Shown here piece after piece: positions 4,475-47,065 of a stretch of DNA of 64,000 nucleotides. This stretch comes from an uncultured Hyphomicrobiales bacterium (GTDB lineage Bacteria > Bacteroidota > Ignavibacteria > Kapaibacteriales > UBA2268): positions 102,702-166,701 of the forward strand of contig CAYPRT010000001.1 of the NCBI GenBank assembly GCA_964413155.1, written 5' to 3'. Made by a program: the position numbers and the translations under genes. The first letter of the stretch is position 1. The number at the start of each line of letters is the position of its first letter. The notes beneath the pieces were generated by a model that made no database searches, was not told the origin of the DNA, and worked only from the letters and a program-made list of their open reading frames with translations.

Positions 4475-5908
4475 TTAAAATCTATATGTAAATTGCAAGC
4501 CGATTTTAATCTGCGAAAGATTCAGTTTATAATTTTTGGCTGGGTCATCGTCGTCGGTTGGATAATTTGTTCGTAAAATTGAATTTGTAGTCAATTGAAA
4601 AGTAGGCTCCAATCGAACATTTGGGGCAACATAAATCGACATACCAAGAGAATAAATATATGTTGTTGCATTAGGTATATCAGCAGTATAAGGTGAAGTA
4701 ATTGAAGAAAAGCTTCCACGAAATTCGAATGGTAAAATTGGCGGGGAATATTGCACCCCGAAGCCCCATTGAACTTGACCAACCAATTCGCGAACAATGC
4801 GAGAATTTAACCTCTCTACTTCTGGTGGTGCATCCGTGAATCGGAGTTGAGTTACGTCAAAATACTCCACACCTGCGGCGAAAATGAAATCGATTACTTT
4901 TATTGAAACTCCTGCAGCGTAGACAAACGGCGTTGTAATTTTGTATGAGTTATATGAATTTTCAACAGGTTCATATGGATTGGGCTTCCAACCATCATCA
5001 AATTGTGCATATGCATCGCGGCGAAACTCCTCTTCTATCTGGTAGAACGTTGGGAATTTCACTGTTGCACCAAATCGAAAGAACTTCTCCAATGTTGCAA
5101 AAACTCCTACCGACCCAGAAATTCCCGATACCTTTTGAGAAAGATTTTCTTTCAAAGTGAAATTGTTAAAATCAATATTATTGTAATTGGCCGAATCGAA
5201 GTAATTGTATTTGTTTAATACATCTACTTCTTTGAACTCTCTATAATAAGTATACTTCCCAAACTTGCCCGATATGGATGCTCCAACTGAAACATTTTCT
5301 GCCACAGAAACTGCAAATCCACCAGTGACATTATGTAAGCCGCCATCTTCATTCACAAATACATTCTGTTGGACAGAATCCTTAATTGGAGTATAAAATT
5401 TGTCGTTTGCAAGCCATAAAAAGTATGGAATATTTGTATTTGTATCTTTTGGTCCAAATTTAGTAAGTGAATTAATAATGGAGCTTTTCGGATTAAAAGC
5501 GCTATAATCAAAGTAGTTCAGAAAGTTGTTTTCGTGGAAATAGCTAATACCCGCAACAACTTTGTTTTGAAACTCACTTACTGGAACTGCAAAACCAAAA
5601 TGGGTTACATAGCTTGAATTCGACCTTCTTTCCAAATTATTAAATAGATACTCTGTTTCGGCAATATTTCTTGTGAAACCCAAACCAATGGAAAGCTCAG
5701 ATTTCCCGATATATAAAATTCCTGCGGGATTGTAAATCAAACCTGAAATATCATCGGAAAGCCCATAGAACGCAACGCCAAAACTCGCAGAACGCGGAGT
5801 AATCATCGAATTCGGCATTGTATAGCGAAGAGCATCTTCAATAAATTGGGCTTTAATTGAAATAGTTGTAATTAACAAAGCTAAAGCAATTTTGAAAGGA
5901 AGTTTCAT
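4475..5908 (-). CDS. Outer-membrane beta-barrel transport protein, FadL/OmpP1/TodX-like (PorV superfamily)
   Basis: Signal peptide MKLPFKIALALLITTISIKAQ. N-terminal motif RSASFGVAFYGLSDDISGLIYNPAGIL resembles the FadL family. Beta-rich with C-terminal aromatic (..TYRF). Start moved to the internal ATG at 5908; the track's 5989 start is an in-frame upstream extension. Confidence 0.55.
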   Translation of the reverse strand: MKLPFKIALALLITTISIKAQFIEDALRYTMPNSMITPRSASFGVAFYGLSDDISGLIYNPAGILYIGKSELSIGLGFTRNIAETEYLFNNLERRSNSSYVTHFGFAVPVSEFQNKVVAGISYFHENNFLNYFDYSAFNPKSSIINSLTKFGPKDTNTNIPYFLWLANDKFYTPIKDSVQQNVFVNEDGGLHNVTGGFAVSVAENVSVGASISGKFGKYTYYREFKEVDVLNKYNYFDSANYNNIDFNNFTLKENLSQKVSGISGSVGVFATLEKFFRFGATVKFPTFYQIEEEFRRDAYAQFDDGWKPNPYEPVENSYNSYKITTPFVYAAGVSIKVIDFIFAAGVEYFDVTQLRFTDAPPEVERLNSRIVRELVGQVQWGFGVQYSPPILPFEFRGSFSSITSPYTADIPNATTYIYSLGMSIYVAPNVRLEPTFQLTTNSILRTNYPTDDDDPAKNYKLNLSQIKIGLQFTYRF

Positions 5909-5912
5909 AATA

Positions 5913-6647
5913 TTACCTTGGTCTTGTTGAACTTCTTTCTTGTTTTGTTGCTGGTTCAGCTTTTGGTGATTCCTTAATTTTTGGAGCATCCGACTTTGGT
6001 GAACTAACTTTTTGGGGTGACTTTTCCCTCAAAGGCTCATCACTTTCATTTGGTCTTACACTTTGCTTTTTCTGTTGTTCAGAACTGCGAGAAGAACTTC
6101 GCGACTCTTTTGTGGGCGATGTTCTATCATCGTATTCGTACCTACCGCGTGAGGGACCAAAATCTCGGACGGTTCGAACTTTGGGCTCGCGAGGTTCTTC
6201 AATTGGAACGTAAATTATATGATTTCTTCGATTCCACCAGTAATAATCCCAATAGGGATAGTGATAAACAACATAGTATTTTGAACGAGAATATTGCATA
6301 CAAACATACCTAAAATCCCAGAATGGGTCGTAATATGGACTCCCCATATACAAGAAAATATCAAAAGTATATGGGTCGTAAAAATCTACAAAACGTGGGT
6401 CATAAGGATAGGGATAATAGTTGTTATATATATAAATGTTTTGTTGCTCAATTTGTTTTTTTCTTTCGTAATCTACCTCATTGGGGGAAGCATAAATATA
6501 AGGTTTATCGTATTTCGATTTTTCTTTCTTTTTAACTTCGGGTACATTATTATAACCGAAGTAATCTTGTCGCGAGTTATTTGTTGAAACACAAGCAGAG
6601 AAAACCAAACTTAAAATGAAAGCCATTAAAAAAAGATTCCTTTTCAT
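5913..6647 (-). CDS. Lipoprotein with extreme Tyr/Pro/Asp/Trp-rich core and Ser/Lys/Glu/Pro-rich disordered tail; function unknown
   Basis: ATG at 6647 preceded by GGAGGG SD. Signal peptide plus lipobox (LVFSAC). Core contains YPYPYDPRFVDFYDPY...HYPYWDYYWW repeats. C-terminal ~80 aa is low-complexity S/K/E/P. A 4-bp gap to the downstream FadL-like gene implies co-transcription. Confidence 0.5.
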   Translation of the reverse strand: MKRNLFLMAFILSLVFSACVSTNNSRQDYFGYNNVPEVKKKEKSKYDKPYIYASPNEVDYERKKQIEQQNIYIYNNYYPYPYDPRFVDFYDPYTFDIFLYMGSPYYDPFWDFRYVCMQYSRSKYYVVYHYPYWDYYWWNRRNHIIYVPIEEPREPKVRTVRDFGPSRGRYEYDDRTSPTKESRSSSRSSEQQKKQSVRPNESDEPLREKSPQKVSSPKSDAPKIKESPKAEPATKQERSSTRPR

Positions 6648-6759: not shown

Positions 6760-7863
6760 ATGGCTAAAATAAATAAAAAACGAATACTTGTTGGAATGTC
6801 GGGTGGAGTTGACTCGTCCACGGCCGCTGCAATTTTAAAATCACAAGGATATGAAGTCGTTGGAATTACTGTAACTTCAATAAAGATAACCGACGAGTGC
6901 AAAGTTCAAAACAGCACTTCTGGTTGTTGTAATTATCAATCTATAATTGACGCAAGCGATGTATGTGAATATCTTGGAATTGAGCACCATATTGTCGACC
7001 TTTCCGAAATTTTTCGAGAGAAAATAATCAGCAATTTTATTGACGAATATTTGAAAGGAAGAACGCCGAATCCTTGTTCCCTGTGTAATCCATTAATCAA
7101 ATGGGGCGAAATTTTAAAAAAAGCCGATGAATACGATTGTTATTATTATGCAACAGGACATTACGCCAAAATCGCCCAAGATAACTCTTCTGGAAGATTT
7201 TACATCAAAATGGCTAAAGATAGAACAAAGGACCAATCCTACTTCCTTTGGGGATTAACCCAAGAGCAGCTGAAACGAACCATATTCCCCCTTGGAAACT
7301 ACCTAAAAACTGAAGTCCGAAAACTTGCAAAGGAATTTGGCTTAAAAATTTACAATAAGTTTGAAAGTCAAGAAATTTGTTTTGTTCCTTCGAACAATTA
7401 CCGAGATGTATTAGAAAAATATTCCCACGAAAAGCAAGTATTTTCCGAAGGCGATATTGTTTTTCGCGGAGTTGTTGTCGGGAAACATCGTGGTTATGTA
7501 AACTACACTATTGGTCAACGAAAAGGTTTAGGAATAAGCTACCATCAGCCTTTATACGTTAAAAGAATTATTCCAGATACAAACACAATTGAAGTGGACA
7601 TTGACGAAGGTTTGAAATCTTTTAAGTTACTTGCTGATAATGTCAATTTTATTAAGTATGATTATTTTGATGAAAATAAAGAATACTTAGTTAAAATTCG
7701 ATACAAAGACAACGGAGAGAAAGCTCACTGCCGTATTCTTGACAATGAGAACCTGGAAGTAATTTTCCTAAACCCGCGAAGGGCAATTACGCCAGGACAA
7801 TCCGTAGTAATTTACGAAAATGAAGACCTTGTGGCAGGAGGTATAATATATGCAAGCGAGTAG
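6760..7863 (+). CDS. mnmA: tRNA-specific 2-thiouridylase MnmA
   Basis: PP-loop SGGVDSS, conserved MnmA core, typical length of 367 aa. Confidence 0.9.
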   Translation: MAKINKKRILVGMSGGVDSSTAAAILKSQGYEVVGITVTSIKITDECKVQNSTSGCCNYQSIIDASDVCEYLGIEHHIVDLSEIFREKIISNFIDEYLKGRTPNPCSLCNPLIKWGEILKKADEYDCYYYATGHYAKIAQDNSSGRFYIKMAKDRTKDQSYFLWGLTQEQLKRTIFPLGNYLKTEVRKLAKEFGLKIYNKFESQEICFVPSNNYRDVLEKYSHEKQVFSEGDIVFRGVVVGKHRGYVNYTIGQRKGLGISYHQPLYVKRIIPDTNTIEVDIDEGLKSFKLLADNVNFIKYDYFDENKEYLVKIRYKDNGEKAHCRILDNENLEVIFLNPRRAITPGQSVVIYENEDLVAGGIIYASE

Positions 7864-8755
7864 AAAACCCATCCTTTTCTTTTTGTTATTCATTTTGTTT
7901 TCTTCTGGACAAAATATTCTGGCAGACCAAAAACAAGAAAGCGTAAGTCAACCCGATACCTCTATCTATTGTTTCAAATATTCTTTCGATGCTGGCGATA
8001 CTCTTTTGTATTTGGTGCATTCATATGATAGTATCATTATCGATTATGGTTTACCTTTGCTTAAAATAAGGAACGAAATTTATAGAATTATTTGCGAAAA
8101 AGTAACTAAATACAATTCTTTCATTCTATCAATTGAATTAATTGAGTTTCAAGGAAGAGATTTTCAGGATACAAATTTTGTTGAATACAATGAATCTAAT
8201 TGGAAAAACCGAAAAATCAAGATAGAAATTGATTCTTTGGGAAATAGGTTTAATTTTTGGGTGGACGACTCGACGAAAAGCGGTAGAACACCCGGTGGAC
8301 CATTTCAACCTCATCTTTTCTTTTCCATCAATGAAACCTGTAAAAAAAAGAACGAAACTTGGTTAGTCCGAACCACAGAAGACCTTGTCGAAAATGGAAT
8401 ACCAATTCCACGACTTATCCACTCGATGCTTTTTAAAATGAATGGAGAAGTCGACACACTTGGCGAAAAAGTTGTACGATGCGAATTCGTTCGCACAGGG
8501 CAAGGTTCTCTTCAGCTTCAACAAATGCAAAACAATATGAAGGTAACTACAATCATCAATGCTTATGGTTTTCTTGACATTTCGAAAGAAAAAGGAATAC
8601 CTTTGCACCTATTTACAACCGAGGAACAAAAACTAAGCTTTAAAACAGAAAATACTCAAAGCACCGGAAGACATTATATCCATACAAACTATACTTTGAT
8701 TGAATATCGCAAAGCGCAAAGTTTGATTAAAAAACCAAAAGAAAAAAAGAAGTAA
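7850..8755 (+). CDS. Hypothetical secreted protein (signal peptide), 301 aa
   Basis: N-terminal signal MQASRKPILFFLLFILFSSGQNILA. ATG overlaps the mnmA stop by 14 nt. No recognisable motif. Confidence 0.4.
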   Translation: MQASRKPILFFLLFILFSSGQNILADQKQESVSQPDTSIYCFKYSFDAGDTLLYLVHSYDSIIIDYGLPLLKIRNEIYRIICEKVTKYNSFILSIELIEFQGRDFQDTNFVEYNESNWKNRKIKIEIDSLGNRFNFWVDDSTKSGRTPGGPFQPHLFFSINETCKKKNETWLVRTTEDLVENGIPIPRLIHSMLFKMNGEVDTLGEKVVRCEFVRTGQGSLQLQQMQNNMKVTTIINAYGFLDISKEKGIPLHLFTTEEQKLSFKTENTQSTGRHYIHTNYTLIEYRKAQSLIKKPKEKKK

Positions 8756-10800: not shown

Positions 10801-10904
10801 TTACTTTGCTTGTAATAAATTTACAAAATTAAGAAAATAATTTGCGGGTATTGTTTGTCTTTTTTCTTGTAACATTTTTTATTTAATTGTGTTATTAAAA
10901 ATGA

Positions 10905-11474
10905 ATGAATAATGAGATAGAGAAATTAAGTGACAACGAACTATTTAAATTGCTTTCGAAAAAAGGAACTGAAAGCGAGCTTGCTTTTTTGGAAATTTAC
11001 CGTCGATACTCTGGTCGTATATTTGCTTATTGTAAAAGATTTTTAGGAAACAAAGAAGACGCTATGGATATATTTCAGGACACATTTGTTAATTTTTATC
11101 AAGCTGCCGATAATAAAGGAAGGGAGATGACTAATCTTCCAGCTTTTTTATTGCGAATTGCCCGGAACTTATGTTTAAATTTTGTTAGACAAAATAAAAA
11201 GACCTCTCATTTAGAAGATTATATGCGATACGAAAACAACTCGGACTTTGCAGAAAACGATGAACTACTTGGTATGATAAAAATAGCAGTACAACAATTA
11301 CCCGAGGACTACCGAGAAGCCTTCATCTTGCGAGAATATGAAGGTATGAGCTACCAAGAAATTGCCGAGTTTTTAAATATTTCACTACCGTTGGTTAAAA
11401 TCAGAATTTTCCGTGCAAAAGAAAAACTTCGCGAAATCCTTGCTCCTTATATTTCTGAATTGTCAAAATTGTAG
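10905..11474 (+). CDS. RNA polymerase sigma-70 factor, ECF subfamily
   Basis: Region 2 (DIFQDTFVNFYQ) and region 4 HTH (EGMSYQEIAEFLNISLPLVKIRIFRAKEKLR). 189 aa. Confidence 0.8.
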   Translation: MNNEIEKLSDNELFKLLSKKGTESELAFLEIYRRYSGRIFAYCKRFLGNKEDAMDIFQDTFVNFYQAADNKGREMTNLPAFLLRIARNLCLNFVRQNKKTSHLEDYMRYENNSDFAENDELLGMIKIAVQQLPEDYREAFILREYEGMSYQEIAEFLNISLPLVKIRIFRAKEKLREILAPYISELSKL

Positions 11475-11485
11475 AAGGTGAAACG

Positions 11486-12664
11486 ATGGATACAGAAAAC
11501 ATTTCGAAAAAAATCATTGAATTTCTCGATGGTGAACTTCCCCAAGCAGAAGAACATAGCCTTTTCTTTGCTCTTTCGGAAAGCGATGAACTACGAAACA
11601 TCTTGAAAGAACATCTTGCAATTTCTCGCTCTGTCCGAAATGATTTTTCTGCTTTTGTACCCCCAAGTTCCGCTATTTTTAATATTGCCAATACATTGAA
11701 TTTAAAAACAATTGGGAATGCAGTTGCCAATAAACCTTCCTTTTTCGCAAAATATGGCAAGAAAGCAGTTCTTATGCTGTCGACTTCAATTTTAACTTTT
11801 CTTTTGACTTTCCTTTTGATAAATTCACATGGCAGAAACAACTCCGAACCTGTTAAAGCAATTGTTCAAACTCCACCAATTATTATCGCTGAACACGAGA
11901 ACAATACTTCTGATGATAAGTATTTAACAAAACAAAAACTTAACAATGTTTCGAACATAAATCCAAATAGTTACTTTTTGGGCAAAGTTTCTAAATCATC
12001 GGCAGCAGTATCCGAACAAAGGCAACAATCCACATCAAACATCGCCTGCATTGAACCTATTACAAATAATCCGAACAACTTTAATGAAATTGACAGAAAT
12101 GTTTCATCACAGTATATTAAACCCACAAAACTTTTTTATTGTAGCTACCCGACAGTAAACACTTTGCTCCAAGATAAATCATTTGTAATAACTTTAAGAG
12201 GACTTACTGGTAAATCCTTTCCCAATCCCGACGTAGCAACAAACGAATTCCCATCTCTGTCGAACTTGAGCTGTGGCTTTTACTTTACCCAATGGAACAA
12301 CATCAAATTTGGAATTGAATTTGGAAGGGAAACCTTTGGACTTTCTTACGAAAACATTGAAAATGGAATTTTATTCAACTATGAACAAAAGCCATCAATT
12401 CTTTGGGGGGCTGTTGGAATTGACTATTCAATTCCTATTTCATTCTACAGCCCATTCCAACCATTTGTAACGGTATTGGCTGGTGGAACACAAATCGGTG
12501 GACCTTTAGTAAAAGGAATTGGTGGAATTCGTTATCGACCAGCAAATTCTAATTTCGAAGCTTACCTTGGCGCCGAAGGAACTTTGCTATTTTACCAAAA
12601 TCAAAAAATATTTTATTTAACAAGGAAAATTGGATTGACATATGGAATCTCGATTATTTTTTAA
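11486..12664 (+). CDS. Putative membrane anti-sigma factor (N-terminal anti-sigma domain, one TM helix, beta-rich C-terminal domain)
   Basis: 11 nt downstream of the ECF sigma gene. N-terminus EFLDGELPQAEEHSLFFALSESDELRNILKEHLAISRSV resembles an anti-sigma N-terminal domain. Single TM (AVLMLSTSILTFLLTFLLI). C-terminal ~130 aa is Gly/aromatic-rich and beta-strand-like, ending in F. Confidence 0.5.
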   Translation: MDTENISKKIIEFLDGELPQAEEHSLFFALSESDELRNILKEHLAISRSVRNDFSAFVPPSSAIFNIANTLNLKTIGNAVANKPSFFAKYGKKAVLMLSTSILTFLLTFLLINSHGRNNSEPVKAIVQTPPIIIAEHENNTSDDKYLTKQKLNNVSNINPNSYFLGKVSKSSAAVSEQRQQSTSNIACIEPITNNPNNFNEIDRNVSSQYIKPTKLFYCSYPTVNTLLQDKSFVITLRGLTGKSFPNPDVATNEFPSLSNLSCGFYFTQWNNIKFGIEFGRETFGLSYENIENGILFNYEQKPSILWGAVGIDYSIPISFYSPFQPFVTVLAGGTQIGGPLVKGIGGIRYRPANSNFEAYLGAEGTLLFYQNQKIFYLTRKIGLTYGISIIF

Positions 12665-13433
12665 ACTCAAGGTGTTGAAAAAGAAACTTACCATATTAAT
12701 TTTGGTCAGTTTTGTATTATCTTTTCAGTATTGTTCCCCTCCAACTGGACTCGATACTCCAATTAAGATTACTCCAAAAGAAAGGGAAAAAACATTCATT
12801 CGACCCCAGGTTTCTTTCTTTTCTTTCGAAGAAAATGGCGTCGAACAAAATTATTACAACTTTAATCCCAATCATTTTAAAATTGAAAAGGTCGAAATAT
12901 TTGTCGACACACTAATCCAACCACCAAGGATTTGGTTCCGTTTGATGACAGAAAAAGAAAATAAAGGAAAGATGGGCGACCACTGGCGAATTTTTATTAA
13001 ATCATTTAACTTCAATATAGATTCATTCCCTGTGCTTGGAATTCCTTTGAATATTAAAACTGGTGAATATCTAAATACTTGGATAAAATTTTTACTTCGT
13101 CGAGGCGCAAAAGAAAGTTATGATACTTTAATAGATCCTTGCAAATTGCCAAATTCCTTTGAAATCAATTTTTCGTTGAACAAACCATATCGGGAAATAT
13201 GGGCAACTGGGTATAGCAAACTGTACAACACTCGCTTCGAAACAATCCTGCGCGATACAACCATTATTGATTCTGTGAAAAAATATCGTTGGGATACTAC
13301 TTGGATCGATAACCAACCCGTCATCAAAAAAGAAGAATACTGGGAGAAAAAAGAAATTAAAATGAAAATCGAAGAAATAACTCCTTTCCCTGATTCTTTG
13401 ATATTAAATTTTAAATTCCGAATGAAATATTAA
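12642..13433 (+). CDS. Hypothetical lipoprotein/secreted protein, 263 aa
   Basis: Hydrophobic signal region KLTILILVSFVLSFQYC. Overlaps the anti-sigma 3' end; the true start may be the internal GTG/TTG at ~12672. No known motif. Confidence 0.4.
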   Translation: MESRLFFKLKVLKKKLTILILVSFVLSFQYCSPPTGLDTPIKITPKEREKTFIRPQVSFFSFEENGVEQNYYNFNPNHFKIEKVEIFVDTLIQPPRIWFRLMTEKENKGKMGDHWRIFIKSFNFNIDSFPVLGIPLNIKTGEYLNTWIKFLLRRGAKESYDTLIDPCKLPNSFEINFSLNKPYREIWATGYSKLYNTRFETILRDTTIIDSVKKYRWDTTWIDNQPVIKKEEYWEKKEIKMKIEEITPFPDSLILNFKFRMKY

Positions 13434-13482
13434 AAAATAAATTTTGTATGTATAAAATTTGTTTCTTCAAAATGGAGGTTTT

Positions 13483-16020
13483 ATGAAAATCAGAAACTTC
13501 TTGTGGGGAGCGCTCATTTTGGTTCTTTCATTATCTCCACTTTTCGCGCAAAACCAAGCACCAAATCCACCGCGACAACTCATTGGTACCTCCTCTCCAA
13601 ATCCCGATGGAACTTACAATGTAAAGCTTAGTTGGTTCATCGACAAAGCAAATTATTCAAATTATGTATTCCCCGATGGATTTAATATCTACCAAACAAT
13701 TCTCCAAGGTGGCGTTGTCAAAAATACCCTCGTTGGTTCTATTAATTCTAATCCAAATCAATTTAGCTACGAATATATAATTACCAATCTTGCTCAAGGA
13801 ACCTATCAGTTTTATGTGACTTCCTTCAAAGGGAATGTACAAAGTCAACCGAGCAACAAAATTACTCTACAACTTTATAACGAGAATAAGTACTATATCA
13901 AAATTATTTCGCAACCTCCACTATATGCTTATGTTGGGAAAAAATATGTTTATCAAATCAAAGTCACAACAAATTTAGATTGCCCGATCGATGTTTTTGA
14001 ATTCGAAGGGGATGTTCCAGAAGGAATGACAATTTCTCCCACTGGCTTAATTGAATGGACACCCCAACAAACCGGTATTTACAAAATCGAAGTAAAAGCA
14101 GGGACTTCGTGCAAAGTAAATGTTGAAGCCGCAAGGCAAACTTTCAAAATACAAGTTCTTGATAGCGTACCACCTAACGAAAAACCTTATGTAAGAATCA
14201 TTAGTCAGCCACAAAATTTTGCAACTATTGGAATTCCTTGGGTATACAAAGTTATTACAGAAACAAATGTTTATTGTGTTGTTCGATACAAAATCTTAGA
14301 AACAGATATCCAAGATTTAGAAATTAATGAAGAAACAGGTTTAATCTCGTGGACACCCCAAAAACCTGGTGTTTACAATTTCACGGTTATGGCATATCTC
14401 CTTTGCGATGACAATGTTTATGATAAACAAAAAGTTACAATCAATGTTGAAGAAAACAATGCAAACAATAATTGTGTACATTTAGTTGGATACGCTTCGT
14501 TCGAGGATGGAACTCTTGTGCCCAACGGAGTTGCAATTGCTTGGAAATTAGATTCGGACAATAATCAAACAAACTCTAATTTTAAAACAACAATTCAGCA
14601 AGGATTCTTCCAATTCTTCTTGCCACCTGGGGTTTATGTTTTTGAGTTCAACGGGGAATTATTTGACCACCAATTTTATGATAAAGCAACTCGATTGTTG
14701 GACGCAACCAAAATTTCCCTTGATTGCGAAAAAACCCCAGAATTCACGTTAAAAGTAGTTTTAACAAAGAAAAATCCACCAGAACTTTACAAAGTTTCTG
14801 GCTATGTCTTGGATGCTAACGATAATTCGCCTGTGCCAGCAATGGTTGAATTTATCCCCGTTGAAATGCTATTCAAGCCCGGTAAATTGAATAACTACGG
14901 AGTTGTTCCTCGTTTTGTAACAAAGACCGATAATGAAGGGAAATATGAAATTGAATTACCTAACAACTTTGCATACATTGCCCATGCAATTCCACTTGAC
15001 AAAACTGCCTATGCCGACCAGTATTACCAACTTTCCTCTTCACCATATAATGCAGATATTATAGTGCTTGTAGAAGATTTAGAAGGTATCGACTTCCTGT
15101 TGAAACCACAAGAAAAATTCAATAATGGATTCGCTGGTATTGTTATCGATAAAGACAGAAATCCAATCGAATCGCGAGTAATCGCAATACTGGTAAAACC
15201 AAATGAGCCGGCAAATTACGCTCCAAATTCAACCATTAGAGTTGTTGAAACAGACCAACAAGGACATTTCTTATTCCAAAATTTGCCACCGGGAGAATAT
15301 GTGCTGCTTTCTATTCCAAAAGATCCCAAGTATGTTCCGGGGTATTATAAAATGAATGACTTTGCAACATTAAAATGGCGCGAAGCTACGCGAGTTGCTG
15401 TCGATAAAGTTATGATTCAAATAATTTATGAAATCAAACACAAAGAACTAAGTTCTTTGAAAGGCTTGGTTACATTCTGTGGCTATGTTGGCGAAGCTTC
15501 GGGAATTATGAAATCATTCGATAAACCACAAAGTTATCCGCCAATAGGAGAGTCACTGGTTTTGGCTTTGGATATTCAAGGAAATGTCATAAATTATACG
15601 TTGGCGGACAAAGATGGCTATTTCATTCTAGAAGAACTTCCTGCTGGTATGTTGAAACTATTGGTTTCGAAAGTAGGCTACAAAGACCTTGAAACCACAG
15701 TCGATGCTAATTTTGAAAATAACTCTTATTTATACTTTGAGTTTAATTTGGAAAAGGAAGTTTCTTCGGTCGAAATCGATAATAATTTGAACCTAATCGT
15801 ATCGCAAACAGAAGATTTCTTGCTACTCGAAACCACATCCGAAACAGAAATTCAAGCAGTTAAATTATTTGACCTTTATGGAAAATTAGTCGTATCTAAC
15901 GAAAACATTCAAGCTACATCAACTCGAATTCCAATTAATTCTATTTCGAGCGGCATTTACTTCATCAGTGTCGCAACAAACAAAGGCTTGTATTCTGGAA
16001 AAGTTTCAATCGTTCGTTGA
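13483..16020 (+). CDS. Large cell-surface protein: signal peptide, two tandem He_PIG-type putative Ig domains, CarboxypepD_reg-like repeats, T9SS C-terminal sorting domain
   Basis: ATG at 13483 with GGAGG SD 5 nt upstream; the track start at 13459 is an extension. Two ~90-aa repeats (IISQPPLYAYVGKKYVYQIKV...GLIEWTPQQTGIYKIEV and IISQPQNFATIGIPWVYKVI...GLISWTPQKPGVYNFTV). C-terminus ...SGIYFISVATNKGLYSGKVSIVR is typical of a T9SS CTD. Confidence 0.6.
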   Translation: MKIRNFLWGALILVLSLSPLFAQNQAPNPPRQLIGTSSPNPDGTYNVKLSWFIDKANYSNYVFPDGFNIYQTILQGGVVKNTLVGSINSNPNQFSYEYIITNLAQGTYQFYVTSFKGNVQSQPSNKITLQLYNENKYYIKIISQPPLYAYVGKKYVYQIKVTTNLDCPIDVFEFEGDVPEGMTISPTGLIEWTPQQTGIYKIEVKAGTSCKVNVEAARQTFKIQVLDSVPPNEKPYVRIISQPQNFATIGIPWVYKVITETNVYCVVRYKILETDIQDLEINEETGLISWTPQKPGVYNFTVMAYLLCDDNVYDKQKVTINVEENNANNNCVHLVGYASFEDGTLVPNGVAIAWKLDSDNNQTNSNFKTTIQQGFFQFFLPPGVYVFEFNGELFDHQFYDKATRLLDATKISLDCEKTPEFTLKVVLTKKNPPELYKVSGYVLDANDNSPVPAMVEFIPVEMLFKPGKLNNYGVVPRFVTKTDNEGKYEIELPNNFAYIAHAIPLDKTAYADQYYQLSSSPYNADIIVLVEDLEGIDFLLKPQEKFNNGFAGIVIDKDRNPIESRVIAILVKPNEPANYAPNSTIRVVETDQQGHFLFQNLPPGEYVLLSIPKDPKYVPGYYKMNDFATLKWREATRVAVDKVMIQIIYEIKHKELSSLKGLVTFCGYVGEASGIMKSFDKPQSYPPIGESLVLALDIQGNVINYTLADKDGYFILEELPAGMLKLLVSKVGYKDLETTVDANFENNSYLYFEFNLEKEVSSVEIDNNLNLIVSQTEDFLLLETTSETEIQAVKLFDLYGKLVVSNENIQATSTRIPINSISSGIYFISVATNKGLYSGKVSIVR

Positions 16021-16042: not shown

Positions 16043-16076
16043 AGAGGCTATCCAATTTGGATAGCCTCTTTTTTTA
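16043..16076 (+). terminator. Rho-independent terminator
   Basis: AGAGGCTATCC-AATT-GGATAGCCTCT hairpin followed by TTTTTTT. Confidence 0.6.
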
Positions 16077-16177: not shown

Positions 16178-16963
16178 TTATTTTTTATCCAAATCCAGTT
16201 TCAAAGCCTTATCCACTAGAATTTCAAGATTTTGCAAAGGAGCATTTTTGGGGGATTGTTGTTTTTTGGCTTTTTTAGATTGAGTTGTTTTATCTATGGA
16301 AGAGTAAAATTCAAAACTAAAGGAATAGTTTCTTCGAGGGACTTTCAGTTCGGTTAAAAGATTTTGGATTGTTTCAGCTCTTTTTTCAGAAATAGCCTTT
16401 GCTTGATCTTCGGGGGTCACTAAAACTTTTGTTTTCTTTTTTCCCTTAACAATAGTGTGAGTTGTTTTTTTAAATAAGCTTTGATTAGTTCGAATGACAA
16501 TTATAAAAGATAATTTTGGATTGTTTTTCGAAAGAGTAGCTAAAAAATTCAATGCATTTTTCCCATCGTTGGTCAAATCGTATGAAGATTCTTCGAAGGC
16601 AACCGCTTTTCGAATTGAAACACCCGGTTCAAGTGGCACTAGAAAAAGATTCGCTTCTTTTTCGTAATAGCTTTGTTGCGATTGTATCTCGAGAGCAACA
16701 GGGTCAATACACAGCCAATTTTCAGCGAAAACAACATAATTACCAAATTTATTTAAAGGAATATGAAAGGAACCATCATTGCTGGACTTTACTGGAATCT
16801 TTTTCCCGTTTTCGTCGATTAAAAAGAATTTAATCTCCAATGGACTCCGAGTTTGGTAATTATATATTTTACCTTTCAATAAAACAGTAGAATTTATACC
16901 ACCACCTTGCCCAAGCAAGGTAAGTGGTATAAGAATAAACAAAAATAATACTCTAAACTTCAT
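16178..16963 (-). CDS. Hypothetical secreted protein with Lys-rich C-terminal tail
   Basis: Signal peptide MKFRVLFLFILIPLTLLGQ. N-terminal region looks like a CarboxypepD_reg-like beta-sandwich. No catalytic motif. Confidence 0.4.
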   Translation of the reverse strand: MKFRVLFLFILIPLTLLGQGGGINSTVLLKGKIYNYQTRSPLEIKFFLIDENGKKIPVKSSNDGSFHIPLNKFGNYVVFAENWLCIDPVALEIQSQQSYYEKEANLFLVPLEPGVSIRKAVAFEESSYDLTNDGKNALNFLATLSKNNPKLSFIIVIRTNQSLFKKTTHTIVKGKKKTKVLVTPEDQAKAISEKRAETIQNLLTELKVPRRNYSFSFEFYSSIDKTTQSKKAKKQQSPKNAPLQNLEILVDKALKLDLDKK

Positions 16964-35875: not shown

Positions 35876-36433
35876 CTAATTTTCGTTCAAAGAATCGTAA
35901 AGTTCTTTGAGCTTTTTCCTGAGGTGAAGCACGGCGTAGCGTTTCCTTGCAAGAAGAGTATTTATGTTAACACCTGTTTGTTCCGACATTTCGCGGAAAG
36001 AGACGCCCTGAAATTCGTTTTTAATAAATACATCACGCTGTTCAGGAGGTAATTCAGCAAGGCCTTCCTGAACTCTTTCCCAAATAGTTTGGCGAAGCAA
36101 TTCCGTATCTGGGTCGGAAGTTTTGTCCGAAATGAAGCTTTCGAAAGTGTCCGATGGGTCATCCGAAGCGCTTGGTAATTGCATATCGGAAAATGTTTCG
36201 GCTCGTTTTTTGCGATATGAATCAATAATACGATTGCGTATAGCAGTAAAAACCCACGACGCAACGTTTTCAATTGGTTTTTGCATCTGCTGCGAAGCAG
36301 CAAGCACATTGGCAAAGACATCTTGTAAGATATCTTCTGCTTCTTCCTGGCTTCGCACCCTTTGCCTGATGAACCCAAGAAACTTCTTACGGTCGGTTCT
36401 AAATAACTGTTCGATTTGAGATGTAAAATCCAT
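35876..36433 (-). CDS. RNA polymerase sigma-70 factor, ECF subfamily (no adjacent anti-sigma gene)
   Basis: Region 2 (DILQDVFANVL) and region 4 (QGVSFREMSEQTGVNINTLLARKRYAVLHLRKKL). ATG 36433 with AAAGGAGGTAAG SD. Visibly higher GC than neighbouring genes. Confidence 0.8.
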   Translation of the reverse strand: MDFTSQIEQLFRTDRKKFLGFIRQRVRSQEEAEDILQDVFANVLAASQQMQKPIENVASWVFTAIRNRIIDSYRKKRAETFSDMQLPSASDDPSDTFESFISDKTSDPDTELLRQTIWERVQEGLAELPPEQRDVFIKNEFQGVSFREMSEQTGVNINTLLARKRYAVLHLRKKLKELYDSLNEN

Positions 36434-36696
36434 CTTACCTCCTTTATTTTTAATTACACCATTTTACAAGAGGGCTTTTTACAATTCCTGTCAAAATGAC
36501 AGAAAGCTTCAGTTCATTTTTTCCCCATTCAGCCAAAATTTTATGCATTTTCACTTCCACAAAAAAATGAAACAGAGTATCAATTTTTCATAAACCCTCG
36601 TAAAATGGTATAATTAAAAACATTTATTCTTTTCAAATTTTTGTCACATTCCATAAGTAATAGACACATAAATTTCAAAAAAGTTTCACTAACTTA

Positions 36697-38349
36697 TCAA
36701 TTTTTTAACATAGGAATTTTTATGCCAAACTTTTTAGCATTTTCTATTGCTCTTTCATAACCTGCATCGGCATGCCTGATGATTCCAGTCATTGGGTCGA
36801 AAGTCAAAACTCGTTTCAAGCGGATTTCTGCTTCTTCGGTTCCATCGGCAACAACGACCATACCTGCGTGCAAAGCCAAACCCATTCCCACACCACCTCC
36901 ATGATGGAACGAAACCCAACTTGCACCCCCAATTGCATTCAAAGCAAAATTAAAGTAAACCCAGTCGGCAATAGCATCCGAACCATCTTTCATATTTTCA
37001 GTCTCGCGATAGGGGGAAGCAACCGAGCCACAATCCAAATGATCTCGTCCTATTACAATTGGCGCAGAAACCTCGCCGGAACGAACCAATTCATTGAATA
37101 ACAATCCTGCTTTTAATCTATCCCCATAACCCAACCAGCAAATTCGTGCTGGCAACGCTTGGAATCGAACATGCTTCTGGGCATTTTTTATCCATCGATG
37201 CAAGGCATTATCATTTGGGAAAATATCCATAATTGCTTCATCAGTTTTGTAAATATCCTTAGGGTCGCCGGACAAAGCCACCCATCGAAAAGGTCCTTTT
37301 CCATCGCAAAACAGAGGTCGAATATATTCAGGAACAAAACCAGGAAAAGCAAAGGCATTTTCGACCCCTCCGTATTCCTTCGCTATCCCACGAATATTAT
37401 TGCCATAATCGAAAACAACTGCACCACGATTTTTAAACTCTATCATTGTTCGAACATGGGTTGCAATGGATTTATAAGCTTCCTCAAGATACTTATCAGG
37501 GTTTTCAACACGAAGTCTATCCGCTTCTTCTTTTGTATAACCCGCAGGATAATACCCATTCAAAGGATCGTGGGCAGCTGTTTGGTCGGTCACAACATCT
37601 GGAATAATGCCACGACGAAGTATTTCAGGATGAATTTCAGCAGCATTACCAACCAAGCCAACAGAGACAGCACGCTTTTCTTCTTTTGCCTTCAGAACGA
37701 TAGAAAGTGCTTCGTCAAGGTTGTAAACTTTTTGTTGACAATAACCATCGTGGATGCGTTTGTCGATTCTCTTTTCGTCAATTTCAACCGTTAAAGAAGC
37801 AGCACCAGCGAAATAAGCAGCCAGAGGTTGGGCTCCACCCATTCCGCCCATACCAGCAGTAAGTAAAAATCGACCGTACAAATCGCCGCCAAAGTGCTGA
37901 CGAGCTACGGCTGCAAAGGTTTCGTAAGTTCCCTGCAAAATTCCTTGGGTACCAATATAAATCCAACTTCCTGCCGTCATCTGACCAAACATAATCAATC
38001 CAAGTTTATCCAGGCGACGAAACTCTTCCCAGGTAGCCCATTTTGGAACAAGATTCGAGTTGGCAATGATAACTCGGGGAGCAAGAGTAAATGTTGGAAC
38101 AATTCCAACTGGCTTTCCCGATTGAACAAGCAAAGTTTCGTCGGGTTCTAAGTTCTTCAATGCATCAAGTATTGCATCGAAACATTCCCAATTGCGTGCA
38201 GCTTTACCATAACCACCATAAACAATTAGTTGGTCTGGTTTCTCGGCGTTCTCTGGGTCTACATTATGCTGAATCATTCGATAGGCAGCTTCGATCTGCC
38301 AATTTTTACAAGTTAATTGTGTACCACGGGGTACTTTTACAGTTCTCAT
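36697..38349 (-). CDS. hutU: Urocanate hydratase (urocanase), found without other hut genes
   Basis: N-terminus [53 protein letters not shown]...[14 protein letters not shown] matches the urocanase family throughout. Start set to the ATG at 38349. Confidence 0.9.
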
Positions 38350-38517
38350 TTTTGTCCAAAGAAAAAACACAAAAATAAATTAAAAAATTTTAATGAATTC
38401 GGTAAGAAATGACAATATTTTTTTTCCTTAATTGAAGAATGCAAATTAATAAAAATATTTTAGAAAAAATCAATTTGCTATTATTATTGTAAATTTGTTA
38501 ATTAATTGGAGGGAAAA

Positions 38518-41064
38518 ATGAAAAATATTTGTGTGATTTTCATTGTGGTAATTTTCATTGTTCACAACCTTTATTCAAAAGATGGAGATACAGTTAGGAT
38601 TAATACCATTCAATTTGGAAGCCCGAAATATGGTTGGTTCGAATTCCCAGACTCATCAAAAAAATTTCAAAAAATTTTGATGAACTATACTATTAAATGC
38701 CCTTGCGGGGAGTGGGACTATCTTGCTATGGTTTTTGTTAAACAATTTTTTGCTCCCAGCTTCCGAGTAGATAGCACAGTTTTGCCCGAATTTGCTTGTA
38801 TGTTCGACACATCATGGAATTACTCTGCCAAAGTTGAAAATGGGAAATTAGTAGTAGATTCCACACCAAAAAAGCCTCGCCTTTTAGAATTTTATTCCGA
38901 TAGCACCAATCCAACAATTCGAACATCTTATCGATATGTTTGGGATACCTACTACCGCTACGAATTCGACAAAAATGGTAATCCAATTGATTCATTTTTA
39001 GTCCAGCCCGACACTATTTTGTATTTAACAAAACGAAGAATTTATTTCGACGACCCAGTTGCAATTGCCGATAGGTATGAAATTATGCGATTTGTCACTC
39101 CATATGGGATTGGTTTAGATGTTGGTGATGGTTTCACATGGACAATGGACGTTACAGATTTTTGGCCATTACTTCAAGGAAAAGTATTCATTGACGCACC
39201 CAACCAGCAGGAAGCAATTCAAATCACATTTGATTTCATCGAAGGTGAACCAGAACGCGATATCATTCGATTTGAAAGAATTTATGATTTTATTGATGTT
39301 GTCTACGACAAAAATTTCGAAAAGAAAGTAGGCAAAATCCAAGTTCAAACCTCGCCTTCTACAGCAAAAATGTATAAATTAAAAGTAATTCAAACAGGTC
39401 ATGGATTCGGTGGCAATGATGATAATTGCTGCGAATTTTGTAAAAAAAATGCATATGTTAAAGTTAACGATACAATTCGCTACACACGTGAAGTATGGCG
39501 AATCTGCTCCGAAAATCCTCTCTACCCGCAAGGCGGAACCTGGTTGCTCAACCGAACCAACTGGTGTCCAGGCGCCGAAGTTCAACCCTTTGATTTCGAA
39601 CTTACTCCTTTCATTGGGAACTACCGCTCTTTTACTTTTGATTACGATATGGATTATTATGATAAACCATATTCATCGGGTAGCAATACAATTGGTCGTT
39701 GGATAATTACCGCTTATCTAATCGCTTACACCAACCTTAAGTTTAATTTAGATGCAGAAATTTATGATATTATTGCTCCAAGCAAAAAAGATGTTTATAA
39801 AAGAGTGAACCCAACTTCTACCCATCCAATTATAGTCATCAGAAATCGTGGTTCAGAAACTATTACAAAACTTAAACTAAAATATGGCATAGTTAATGCA
39901 AAAGAATATGTATACGAATGGTCTGGTGAAATTAAATCATTAGCTTCACAACAAATTACTCTTCCAAGTTTAGATTGTAGCGATTGGAAAAGCAATAGCA
40001 ACAAATTCAAAGTTGAAATTTTGGAAGTCAATGAGAAAAATGATGAATACACATCGAATAACATTGGTTATTCCGAATTTGTACCCCCAGCTTCGTTTTA
40101 TAACAATTTAATTATTAAAGTAAAAACTAACAATTTCAACGTTCTTTCCAACGACCCATTGGCTCAACCATATTCATACAAAATCCAGGATTCTAAGGAT
40201 AATGTAATACTTTCAAAGATAGGTTTGCTTCCTTCTACAACTTATAGCGATACTATAAATCTTGATGATGGATGTTACGAATTTTACTTCGAAAATCAAT
40301 TGGAGTGTGGGCTGGGTTTTTGGTTCTATAAACAATATTTAGGACTTAACGATGGACTATTGCAAATTTCCAGCGATAATTTGATTTTATTCCAACCTAA
40401 TATTGATTTTGGTCGTTCTCTCCACCAATTTTTTATCGCAGAAGACCAACCAACCATCAAGTTTTCTCCCGATACAATTAATTTCGGAGATGTTTCAATA
40501 ACTCAAACAACAACACAGAAAGCAATTATCAAACCTGCAAATCAGAAAGGTATTTCCCTGTGGAACTTCGATTTAGTTTTAGGTTCAACCAAAGGTTTTT
40601 CCATTGCAAAAATCGAACCTGACCCCGACCAGAGTGGCGTTTGGAACTTGTCCTATGGTGATTCAATCGTTGTTCATATTTCGTTCTCCCCAAAAAAAGT
40701 TGGTAAAACATCAACAAGTTTAACTTTTTTCACAAATGATAAGAAAAATGCTTCGGTTTCAATACCTATTAGAGCAAATGTTGTTTCGGAAAGTTATGTT
40801 GAAGATAATCCTGTTGCTCCATATATTGAACTGATAAACAATAAGAAAAACTTATATGTTTTTAATATTGATATACCAGAAAGTGAAATTCTAACTTGCA
40901 CTATTTATAATATCTTAGGAAAGTCAATTTCATCGGATGAAGTAAATCCTAGTTTACACAAATATTATGTAGATATGACAAGATTTGGTTCTGGCTGCTA
41001 TTGGATTACATTTCAAACCAATAGAAGAATTTTCGCTTTCCCTGTAGTTGTAATTAACGATTAA
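38518..41064 (+). CDS. Secreted multidomain protein: PNGase F-like N-terminal region, choice-of-anchor-D (ASH/Ig-like) domain, T9SS C-terminal sorting domain
   Basis: ATG 38518 with GGAGGG SD. Blocks recalled from Elizabethkingia PNGase F: CGEWDYLAMVFV (vs CDEWDRYANVYV), YEIMRFVTPYGIG (vs YEIGRFITPYWVG), MDVTDFWPLLQG (vs IDVTDFKSLLSG), NWCPGAEV (vs GWCPGMAV). ASH-like stretch FGDVSITQTTTQKAIIKPANQKGISLWNFDL...LTFFTND. C-terminal CTD ...CYWITFQTNRRIFAFPVVVIND. Confidence 0.55.
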   Translation: MKNICVIFIVVIFIVHNLYSKDGDTVRINTIQFGSPKYGWFEFPDSSKKFQKILMNYTIKCPCGEWDYLAMVFVKQFFAPSFRVDSTVLPEFACMFDTSWNYSAKVENGKLVVDSTPKKPRLLEFYSDSTNPTIRTSYRYVWDTYYRYEFDKNGNPIDSFLVQPDTILYLTKRRIYFDDPVAIADRYEIMRFVTPYGIGLDVGDGFTWTMDVTDFWPLLQGKVFIDAPNQQEAIQITFDFIEGEPERDIIRFERIYDFIDVVYDKNFEKKVGKIQVQTSPSTAKMYKLKVIQTGHGFGGNDDNCCEFCKKNAYVKVNDTIRYTREVWRICSENPLYPQGGTWLLNRTNWCPGAEVQPFDFELTPFIGNYRSFTFDYDMDYYDKPYSSGSNTIGRWIITAYLIAYTNLKFNLDAEIYDIIAPSKKDVYKRVNPTSTHPIIVIRNRGSETITKLKLKYGIVNAKEYVYEWSGEIKSLASQQITLPSLDCSDWKSNSNKFKVEILEVNEKNDEYTSNNIGYSEFVPPASFYNNLIIKVKTNNFNVLSNDPLAQPYSYKIQDSKDNVILSKIGLLPSTTYSDTINLDDGCYEFYFENQLECGLGFWFYKQYLGLNDGLLQISSDNLILFQPNIDFGRSLHQFFIAEDQPTIKFSPDTINFGDVSITQTTTQKAIIKPANQKGISLWNFDLVLGSTKGFSIAKIEPDPDQSGVWNLSYGDSIVVHISFSPKKVGKTSTSLTFFTNDKKNASVSIPIRANVVSESYVEDNPVAPYIELINNKKNLYVFNIDIPESEILTCTIYNILGKSISSDEVNPSLHKYYVDMTRFGSGCYWITFQTNRRIFAFPVVVIND

Positions 41065-46998: not shown

Positions 46999-47065
46999 AT
47001 TTCCACCAAAGATTTTAAAATAAATACAAAAATAAAAAATGTTGAGGTTCAAACGAAATATATTT

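What the first reader, a model, noticed from the sequence alone, without database searches (positions are those of the whole stretch)
10905..16020. ECF sigma / membrane anti-sigma / lipoprotein / He_PIG-domain T9SS cargo cassette
An ECF sigma factor is followed 11 nt later by a single-TM anti-sigma-like protein. The anti-sigma's C-terminal 130 aa are beta-rich and end in Phe, which is unusual for a periplasmic sensor domain. Next come an overlapping lipoprotein gene and an 845-aa surface protein with tandem He_PIG Ig-like domains, CarboxypepD_reg-like repeats and a T9SS CTD. The cassette ends in a strong terminator. The arrangement suggests a cell-surface signalling unit in which the sigma factor controls, or responds to, its neighbouring adhesin-like cargo.
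Basis: inference. Interest (0 to 1): 0.5.

Follow-up and report, generated by a model that had tools for sequence, protein, structure and literature searches.

The report
Two-membrane anti-sigma signalling operon
This is a four-gene operon whose "anti-sigma factor" is predicted to be one protein stretched across the whole cell envelope, with a sigma-binding head in the cytoplasm, a floppy tether and a barrel in the outer membrane; that design was first described in gut Bacteroides in 2024, and it appears here as a large unannotated family tied to a partner lipoprotein and a secreted surface protein.

The parts
10868..10895 (+). ECF-type promoter-like motif TGTAAC-N16-TGTTAT. The -10-like element ends 9 nt before the sigma ATG.
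   Evidence: GTAAC-N17-GTTA is present at the same place in 12 of 12 orthologous loci with an invariant spacer. The exact motif is unique in the 64-kb window and unique in each of the 11 fetched loci. It forms the only invariant islands in an alignment with 56% mean column identity that includes 3 distant family members. It also occurs in L012/L013, L016 and L018. Promoter function is inferred.
10905..11474 (+). ECF sigma factor, 189 aa.
   Evidence: Sigma70_r2 58.9 bits and Sigma70_r4_2 67.9 bits. TIGR02937 scores 95.2, above its cut-off. TIGR02985 (121.7 against 126.4) and NF058625 (103.5 against 130) fall below theirs. The best solved relatives are SigE, AlgU, SigW and RpoE. Identity across the orthologous loci is 67-93%.
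11486..11695 (+). Cytoplasmic anti-sigma domain of the 392-aa protein (residues 1-70, four helices, no Zn ligands).
11765..11821 (+). Single inner-membrane helix (residues 94-112), with KYGKK on its N-terminal side.
   Evidence: It has the highest Kyte-Doolittle 19-mer score, 2.39, and is the only such segment. The AF2 helix spans 86-112.
11822..12181 (+). Periplasmic tether (residues 113-232). It is N/S-rich and predicted disordered, and it starts with the conserved juxtamembrane motif AIVQTPP (residues 125-131).
   Evidence: pLDDT is below 50 for residues 113-229. Its sequence and length vary across the family. Q128, P130 and P131 are invariant in the clade. P131 is kept in at least 90% of 150 family members.
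12182..12664 (+). C-terminal outer-membrane beta-barrel domain (residues 233-392) with a terminal Phe beta-signal, plus the stop codon.
12642..13433 (+). Partner lipoprotein, 263 aa. The lipobox Cys31 is encoded at 12732-12734. The fold is unknown and it is not NigD-like.
   Evidence: Cys31 is invariant. There is no Pfam, NCBIfam or PDB match. A homologous lipoprotein directly follows the anti-sigma gene in the nine distant contexts with DNA (three strongly, six weakly) and an unannotated 221-aa gene follows in a tenth. The AF2 model is unusable, with pLDDT 50.
13483..16020 (+). T9SS-secreted surface protein, 845 aa. It has a signal peptide, 2 He_PIG/Y_Y_Y Ig-like domains, CarboxypepD_reg-like domains and a type-A CTD encoded at about 15820-16011.
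   Evidence: Orthologues at 40-88% identity follow the lipoprotein in 10 of 10 loci. The same architecture recurs in the distant loci L019 and L016.
16043..16076 (+). Intrinsic terminator that closes the operon.
   Evidence: It has a 12-bp stem with 6 G-C pairs, a 3-nt loop and T7. A hairpin plus T-run with an unrelated stem sequence lies 7-30 nt after the cargo stop in 9 of 13 loci.

Best explanation
[quoted passage not shown] The anti-sigma is one polypeptide. Its cytoplasmic RsiW/RseA-like four-helix domain holds the sigma at the inner membrane. One helix crosses the inner membrane. A disordered tether of about 120 aa crosses the periplasm. A Phe-terminated beta-barrel of the 8-stranded type sits in the outer membrane. 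Inferred mechanism: a disturbance at the outer membrane affects barrel assembly or occupancy, possibly through the partner lipoprotein or the state of T9SS cargo. This exposes the tether or the juxtamembrane segment (the conserved AIVQTPP motif) to regulated proteolysis. Sigma is then released and transcribes from the TGTAAC-N16-TGTTA promoter just upstream of its own gene, which raises all four products together. Shown here, all by prediction or comparison: the gene order and its conservation, the domain architecture, the promoter-like motif, its uniqueness, and the terminator. Inferred: sigma binding, insertion into both membranes, the signal, the proteolysis, and co-transcription.
Against: No curated HMM for an anti-sigma domain or an outer-membrane barrel passes threshold on this protein. 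All structural evidence rests on one AF2 model with overall pLDDT 63.9 and pTM 0.42. DSSP shows 10 strand segments, so the count of 8 strands is inferred from the best matches. Sequence homology to Dma1 could not be tested. The cargo is absent from 5 of 8 informative distant contexts, so it is not intrinsic to the module. It has its own strong SD, and AT-rich 'AAATTTTG'-like strings in the lipoprotein-cargo gap could act as an internal housekeeping promoter. GTAAC...GTTA is also a near-palindrome, so it could be an operator. The -10-like element ends only 9 nt before the ATG, which implies an almost leaderless mRNA or a mis-called start.
Confidence: 0.65

Rival explanations
1. The protein is a conventional single-pass anti-sigma factor. 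Its C-terminal beta domain is a soluble periplasmic sensor, such as a lipocalin- or avidin-like barrel, and is not inserted in the outer membrane.
Confidence: 0.1
2. Sigma, anti-sigma and lipoprotein form the real module. The He_PIG/T9SS cargo is only a syntenic neighbour with its own promoter and is not under this sigma's control.
For: The cargo is missing after the lipoprotein in L014, L015, L017, L018 and L021. It has its own GGAGG and a 20-50-nt AT-rich gap with sigma-70-like and TTTG-containing strings. The whole clade also keeps wecB and the epimerase upstream, so part of the synteny is simply shared ancestry.
Against: Synteny beyond the cargo is lost in every locus except the closest one, L002, while the cargo stays directly attached in 10 of 10 loci, down to 40% identity. 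No terminator lies between the lipoprotein and the cargo, and a terminator follows the cargo. A cargo of the same architecture recurs after the module in L019 and L016, whose anti-sigma proteins are about 30% identical to the window's. In L012/L013 a 1423-aa Ig-rich protein follows the lipoprotein, and the next gene has a weak T9SS-CTD match. A CTD protein also follows in L022.
Confidence: 0.2
3. The 392-aa protein is not an anti-sigma factor. It is an envelope tether or structural protein that links the two membranes, and it merely happens to be encoded next to a sigma factor.
Confidence: 0.05

Closest known systems
[quoted passage not shown] 2024, PMC10927553; bioRxiv 10.1101/2025.09.27.678952)
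   Same: Both have the same four-part architecture: an N-terminal sigma-binding domain, a TM helix, a long disordered tether and a C-terminal 8-stranded beta-barrel. In both, the gene sits directly after an ECF sigma. A lipoprotein gene lies next to the pair (NigD2/BT_4719 next to das1-dma1), and dma2 lies in a five-gene operon with additional genes.
   Different: The barrel here is not recognised by Pfam OMP_b-brl_2, which is how Dma1 is annotated (0 of 113 members). The protein is shorter, 392 aa against about 55 kDa. The partner lipoprotein is not NigD-like. A T9SS cargo is co-encoded. The hosts are Kapaibacteria and Ignavibacteria, not Bacteroidia. Direct sequence homology to Dma1 and ECF21 membership of the sigma could not be tested. 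The known output of Dma1, vesiculation, is not implied here.
Reo/EcfO of Bacteroides fragilis (Ndamukong 2013, as cited in PMC10927553)
   Same: Both are an ECF sigma plus a membrane anti-sigma whose N-terminal cytoplasmic region sequesters the sigma. Reo is reported to be a Dma1 orthologue.
   Different: Its role is in oxidative stress. The paper is not held in the library, so no comparison of promoter or regulon was possible.
RseA/sigmaE, MucA/AlgU and RsiW/SigW (class I anti-sigma domains removed by regulated intramembrane proteolysis)
   Same: The N-domain fold matches MucA-cyto and RsiW. There are sub-threshold RseA_N and zf-HC2 hits. Topology is single-pass with the N-terminus inside. 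The sigma's nearest solved relatives are SigE, AlgU, SigW and RpoE. The promoter has an 'AAC' -35 element with a 16-17-nt spacer (ECF consensus from my own knowledge).
   Different: In those systems the periplasmic domain is a small soluble domain that senses through DegS, RseB or PrsW. Here it is replaced by a tether plus an outer-membrane barrel. The sequence has no Zn-binding H-x3-C-x2-C motif.
FecA-FecR-FecI-type cell-surface signalling, including the SusC-linked ECF/anti-sigma pairs of Bacteroides
   Same: Both pass information from the outer membrane to a cytoplasmic ECF sigma through an inner-membrane anti-sigma.
   Different: That system uses two proteins, a TonB-dependent transducer plus FecR. 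Here there is no FecR domain and no TonB-dependent receptor in the cassette. A single polypeptide would bridge both membranes.
SigX-CfrX-CmpX-OprF locus of Pseudomonas aeruginosa (ECF102; described in PMC7826278)
   Same: In both, an ECF sigma is co-encoded with a putative anti-sigma and an 8-stranded-barrel outer-membrane protein. OprF-N is among the best structural matches to the barrel here.
   Different: There the barrel protein is a separate gene product with an OmpA-like C-domain. Here the barrel is fused to the anti-sigma.

Membership tests
[quoted passage not shown] | N-terminal cytoplasmic anti-sigma (sigma-binding) domain | tested here: met
[quoted passage not shown] | Single alpha-helical transmembrane segment after the N-domain | tested here: met
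   There is one hydrophobic helix at residues 94-112 (KD 2.39) with KYGKK before it. The AF2 helix spans 86-112.
[quoted passage not shown] | Long intrinsically disordered tether | tested here: met
   Residues 113-229 have pLDDT below 50 and no secondary structure. The segment is N/S-rich and varies in length and sequence across the family.
[quoted passage not shown] | C-terminal 8-stranded beta-barrel of the outer-membrane type | tested here: met
[quoted passage not shown] | Annotation as Pfam OMP_b-brl_2, or sequence homology to Dma1, Dma2 or Dma3 | tested here: not met
   PF13568 matches 0 of 113 family members at E<=0.01. One member matches PF13505. Neither the isolated C-domain nor the family consensus gives any Pfam hit at E<=10. 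Direct comparison with Dma1 was not possible because no sequence could be reached.
[quoted passage not shown] | Encoded next to an ECF21-family sigma factor | tested here: inconclusive
   Adjacency is met in every context that shows the upstream gene. The ECF group cannot be assigned without the ECF-group HMMs. Only the generic TIGR02937 passes its cut-off. TIGR02985 and NF058625 fall just below theirs.
[quoted passage not shown] | One polypeptide physically located in both the inner and the outer membrane | not testable with these tools
   This needs fractionation or dual-epitope tagging, as was done for Dma1.
[quoted passage not shown] | Occurrence restricted to Bacteroidota | tested here: inconclusive
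   The 11 genome loci come from MAGs labelled Kapaibacteria, Ignavibacteria or Bacteroidetes/Chlorobi group; two carry an implausible 'uncultured Hyphomicrobiales' label. NCBI places Kapaibacteriota inside Bacteroidota and Ignavibacteria in the sister phylum Ignavibacteriota. The hosts of the wider family are unknown.
NigD-like lipoproteins (Dma1 regulon members) | NigD_N / NigD_C domains | tested here: not met
   The window lipoprotein has no such Pfam hit at E<=1, and none of 10 distant homologues has one at E<=0.1. The lipobox Cys is present.
Zinc-binding anti-sigma factors (ZAS, zf-HC2) | H-x3-C-x2-C zinc ligands and a PF13490 match above threshold | tested here: not met
   The conserved N-domain has no Cys. 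PF13490 scores 15.3 bits against a cut-off of 22.2.
T9SS type-A cargo | N-terminal signal peptide plus a C-terminal sorting domain (TIGR04183/PF18962) in a genome with T9SS machinery | tested here: met
   TIGR04183 scores 33.3 against 23 and PF18962 scores 31.6 against 27. The signal-peptide-like N-terminus MKIRNFLWGALILVLSLSPLFAQ is visible in the sequence. A T9SS plug-protein homologue (PF17116, 55.4 bits) is encoded at 42955-44286.
FecR/FecI cell-surface signalling | FecR domain in the anti-sigma and an adjacent TonB-dependent transducer | tested here: not met
   There is no FecR or TonB-receptor hit in the cassette. A TonB-dependent receptor appears only in the very distant L022 context.

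The most novel reading that the evidence does not exclude
The fused outer-membrane barrel, together with its dedicated partner lipoprotein, monitors the outer-membrane or surface state of the co-encoded T9SS cargo, for example CTD cargo that is stalled, unattached or missing. It feeds that back through the tether to the ECF sigma. This would be a self-contained trans-envelope feedback circuit for a T9SS adhesin, and a signalling logic not described for Dma factors or for T9SS regulation. The 1,800-member family would then be a widespread, unannotated envelope-spanning sensor class in deep-branching Bacteroidota and their relatives.
Probability: 0.15. Interest if true: 0.75.

Novelty: new variant of a known kind. 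Interest (0 to 1): 0.55.

Why it matters
[quoted passage not shown] This locus shows the same predicted architecture in a separate, large family of at least 1,811 50%-identity cluster representatives. Neither Pfam nor NCBIfam recognises that family, so standard annotation misses it completely. It comes with two leads that the Bacteroides systems lack. One is an invariably linked partner lipoprotein with a conserved C-x-[SN]-P-x-[DE] N-terminus. The other is a T9SS surface protein that is co-encoded again and again. Both give concrete candidates for the input or output of the sensor. The compact 392-aa version, with a clear promoter motif, would also make a convenient model system. The finding extends a known mechanism and does not establish a new one, and every functional step is still inferred.

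Tried and rejected
(1) Curated HMMs on the 392-aa protein and the lipoprotein gave nothing above threshold.
(2) A profile of the N-domain searched against PDB sequences returned only chance hits such as PPAR-gamma and cytochrome c555.
(3) AF2 on the lipoprotein with 14 homologues gave pLDDT 50, which is unusable, so no fold search was run on it. Its profile matched nothing in PDB sequences, and its distant homologues have no Pfam hits.
(4) The afdb50 fold library, which might have returned Dma1 itself, was unavailable.
(5) The third protein-database search, with the broad profile, was swamped by the close clade and gave no taxonomic or Pfam information.
(6) tblastn of the family consensus against plasmids found no match.
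(8) The Dma paper has no supplementary text held here, and the EcfO/Reo paper is not held. The ECF reclassification paper says nothing usable on ECF21, and BtModulome reports no Das1 motif. The PG0214 literature was uninformative.
(9) I considered an internal ECF promoter. The 1-mismatch site at 12509-12534 is within chance expectation (12 found against 10.4 expected) and is not conserved in any orthologue, so I rejected it.
(10) The second ECF sigma at 35876-36433 has no adjacent partner and is unrelated to the cassette.
(11) The second hmmsearch iteration on the lipoproteins is circular and was not used as evidence.
(12) The last contig look-up, for P0024, returned the already known L009 locus.


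Full report
OBSERVATION. The four plus-strand ORFs exist as described. They are the ECF sigma at 10905-11474, a 392-aa protein at 11486-12664 (11-nt gap), a 263-aa lipoprotein-like ORF at 12642-13433, and a large ORF whose likely start is the ATG at 13483 behind a GGAGG, giving 845 aa. The lipoprotein overlaps the preceding gene by 23 nt if its ATG is used; a GTG at 12672 would remove the overlap. Pfam and NCBIfam confirm the sigma (Sigma70_r2, r4_2; TIGR02937). They also confirm the cargo domains: He_PIG x2, Y_Y_Y, CarboxypepD_reg x2, and Por_Secre_tail/TIGR04183, all above their cut-offs. A 12-bp G+C-rich hairpin followed by T7 lies at 16043-16076. The 392-aa protein and the lipoprotein match no curated family model at all.

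WHAT THE 'ANTI-SIGMA' IS. A first homology search found only 23 clusters, all full length and unannotated, with the named ones from Ignavibacteria and Kapaibacteriota MAGs. The alignment shows four parts:
- a conserved 60-residue N-terminus (IIEYLDGELP..EE..LF.AL....LR);
- one hydrophobic helix;
- an invariant juxtamembrane motif, IVQTPP, followed by a variable linker of about 100 residues;
- a conserved C-terminal domain of about 160 residues that ends in an invariant Phe.

Sequence features fit this reading. There is a single strong hydrophobic helix at 94-112, preceded by KYGKK, which indicates N-in topology. The tether is rich in N and S. Most strands alternate hydrophobic and polar residues. 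The last residue is F, Y or L in 109 of 113 family members, as expected for an outer-membrane beta-signal.

The protein is therefore predicted to reach from the cytoplasm to the outer membrane. This is the architecture defined for the Dma family in Bacteroides thetaiotaomicron: an N-terminal sigma-binding domain, a TM helix, a long disordered tether and a C-terminal 8-stranded barrel, encoded next to an ECF sigma (PMC10927553; bioRxiv 10.1101/2025.09.27.678952).

FAMILY SIZE AND HMM-LEVEL EVIDENCE. A profile of the 23 sequences, searched against 1.84 billion representatives, finds 1,811 proteins at E<=1e-3 and 303 at E<=1e-30. Almost all of the 150 listed align end to end, at 372-544 aa. This rules out a local fusion or an assembly artefact. 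It also shows a large family that annotation pipelines do not see.

Among 113 members scanned against Pfam, 12 hit RseA_N (best E 4.8e-5), 3 hit zf-HC2, 1 hits OMP_b-brl and none hits OMP_b-brl_2. The window's N-domain alone gives zf-HC2 at E 0.022. The family consensus gives zf-HC2 at 0.011 and RseA_N at 0.031. The C-domain gives nothing. NCBIfam's 'antisigma' model NF052375 weakly hits the N-terminus of 3 of 10 members.

All of these scores are below the curated cut-offs. Even so, the only families that ever touch the N-domain are anti-sigma families. The conserved N-domain has no cysteines, so it is not a zinc-binding anti-sigma domain.

LINKAGE. Eleven genome loci were retrieved. Most come from MAGs labelled Kapaibacteria, Ignavibacteria or Bacteroidetes/Chlorobi group, and two carry an implausible 'uncultured Hyphomicrobiales' label. 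All 10 loci long enough to judge keep the same arrangement: epimerase and wecB on the minus strand, then sigma, anti-sigma, lipoprotein and cargo on the plus strand. Identities are 67-93% for sigma, 39-79% for the anti-sigma, 45-84% for the lipoprotein and 40-88% for the cargo. Synteny beyond the cargo survives only in the closest relative, L002.

Ten further contexts come from family members at about 25-30% identity. In every one an unannotated gene of 203-243 aa follows the anti-sigma directly. An ECF sigma precedes the anti-sigma in nine, and in the tenth (L017) the upstream gene is cut off by the contig end. The nine downstream proteins with DNA in hand all have a signal helix and a lipobox Cys followed by [SN]-P-x-[DE]-[LVI]. 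Against the profile of the window's lipoprotein family, three score strongly (E 1e-30 to 1e-45). Six score weakly (9-17 bits), but all nine are above every control.

A large T9SS-type surface protein follows in 3 of the 8 contexts where the downstream gene can be read:
- L019 has an 843-aa protein with the same He_PIG/Y_Y_Y/CarboxypepD_reg/CTD architecture.
- L016 has an 854-aa CarboxypepD_reg/CTD protein.
- L012/L013 have two Ig-rich proteins of about 1,400 aa; the second, cut off by the locus end, has a weak T9SS-CTD match.

It is absent from L014, L015, L017, L018 and L021. A very distant member, P0187, has sigma, anti-sigma, a 659-aa CTD protein and a TonB-dependent receptor, with no small lipoprotein. 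The conserved core is therefore sigma / dual-membrane anti-sigma / lipoprotein. The T9SS cargo is a recurrent but optional fourth gene.

PROMOTER AND OPERON STRUCTURE. The wecB-sigma intergenic region has diverged but contains invariant islands. GTAAC-N17-GTTA, or TGTAAC-N16-TGTTA(T) in full, is present in 12 of 12 loci with a fixed spacer, and it ends 10-14 nt before the sigma start. The exact motif is unique in the 64-kb window and unique in each fetched locus. It reappears upstream of sigma in the distant loci L012/L013, L016 and L018, but not in L014 or L015.

From general knowledge, an 'AAC' -35 element with a 16-17-nt spacer directly upstream of its own gene is the classical autoregulated ECF promoter layout. 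Function here is inferred. The element is also nearly palindromic, so an operator reading is not excluded.

No ECF-type motif with one mismatch or fewer lies in the 300 nt before the lipoprotein or the cargo in any of 11 loci. The single 1-mismatch site in the window, at 12509, is at chance level and is not conserved. Intergenic gaps are tiny, no terminator lies between the genes, and 9 of 13 loci have a strong hairpin plus T-run with an unrelated stem 7-30 nt after the cargo stop. This is the pattern of a single transcription unit. An additional housekeeping promoter in the AT-rich lipoprotein-cargo gap cannot be excluded.

MECHANISM (INFERRED). By analogy with Dma1/Das1, the N-domain sequesters the sigma at the inner membrane. 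In that system the N-terminus binds the sigma in vitro, the barrel is found in the outer membrane and in OMVs, and deletion de-represses a small regulon that includes the adjacent lipoprotein gene. An event at the outer membrane would then be transmitted through, or would expose, the tether. Regulated proteolysis would release the sigma, which would induce its own operon.

The invariant AIVQTPP segment just outside the inner membrane is a candidate cleavage or docking site. The always-linked lipoprotein and the co-encoded T9SS cargo are candidate ligands or outputs of the barrel. None of this has been tested. The window also encodes a T9SS plug-protein homologue (PF17116), so the secretion system is present in this organism.

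COMPARISON AND NOVELTY. All four architectural criteria of the Dma family are met by prediction. The annotation-level criterion, Pfam OMP_b-brl_2, is not met. Direct homology to Dma1 and ECF21 membership of the sigma could not be tested. The partner lipoprotein is not NigD-like.

In the literature held here, Dma factors are described only in Bacteroides, are stated to be restricted to Bacteroidota, and are not linked to T9SS. NCBI taxonomy now places Kapaibacteriota inside Bacteroidota and Ignavibacteria in the sister phylum. This is therefore a deep-branching extension and not a clear exception to that statement.

I file it as a new variant of a known kind. The predicted design is the same. 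The sequence family, the partner lipoprotein and the co-encoded output differ.

VERDICT. Interest is 0.55. It would interest people who work on ECF signalling, the Bacteroidota envelope and T9SS. It extends a very recent discovery and is not a new principle, and it rests on prediction and comparative genomics only.

Noticed in passing
window 10801-10904: The divergent wecB/sigma intergenic region has two further conserved blocks besides the ECF motif. The first, TACAAAATTA at 10822-10831, reads TAATTTTGTA on the minus strand. That is a Bacteroidetes-type -7 box (TAnnTTTG, from my own knowledge), 24-31 nt upstream of the wecB start. The second is an unexplained TTGTCTTT block at about 10853-10860, present in most of the 12 loci.
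   Followed up: partly
window 10890-10907: The -10-like TGTTAT ends only 9 nt before the sigma ATG, and 10-14 nt before it in the orthologues. In L018 it ends 2 nt before the called ATG. This implies a nearly leaderless sigma mRNA or mis-called starts. The cargo gene, by contrast, has a strong GGAGG.
   Followed up: no
window 11858-11878 (residues 125-131 of the 392-aa protein): The juxtamembrane periplasmic motif AIVQTPP is conserved. Q128, P130 and P131 are invariant in the clade, and P131 is kept in at least 90% of 150 distant family members. It could be a protease or docking site.
   Followed up: no
window 35876-36433 (-): A second ECF sigma factor (Sigma70_r2 plus r4_2) has no anti-sigma gene next to it. 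The downstream space is occupied by a plus-strand gene.
   Followed up: partly
window 42955-44286 (-) and 38506-41064 (+): The first is a T9SS plug-protein homologue (PF17116, 55.4 bits). The second is an 852-aa protein with a PNGase-F C-terminal domain and an Ig-like domain, and may be another secreted surface protein.
   Followed up: no
window 16178-16963 (-): An OmpA-family protein (PF00691, 28.9 bits) with a signal peptide is encoded convergently, directly after the operon terminator. It is conserved at this position only in the closest relative, L002.
   Followed up: no
window 4475-5989 (-), 7850-8755 (+), 44959-47052 (-): Three sizeable ORFs (504, 301 and 697 aa) have no Pfam match at E<=1e-4 or E<=1e-5.
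   Followed up: no
window 36001-38000: G+C rises locally to 0.41 against about 0.35 elsewhere, with a GC skew of -0.17. The rise coincides with a 557-aa minus-strand ORF at 36697-38370. The ORF was not annotated here.
   Followed up: no
L015 6001-7416 (P0060); L016 5868-6287: There is variation within the family. In P0060 the tether gives coiled-coil-type Pfam and NCBIfam hits (CCDC22, SMC-like) in place of N/S-rich disorder. L016 carries an extra 139-aa lipoprotein between the partner lipoprotein and the cargo.
   Followed up: no
L006, L007 (record titles): Two MAG records that carry this Kapaibacteria-type locus are titled 'uncultured Hyphomicrobiales bacterium'. Given the gene content and synteny, this is probably a mislabelled bin.
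   Followed up: no
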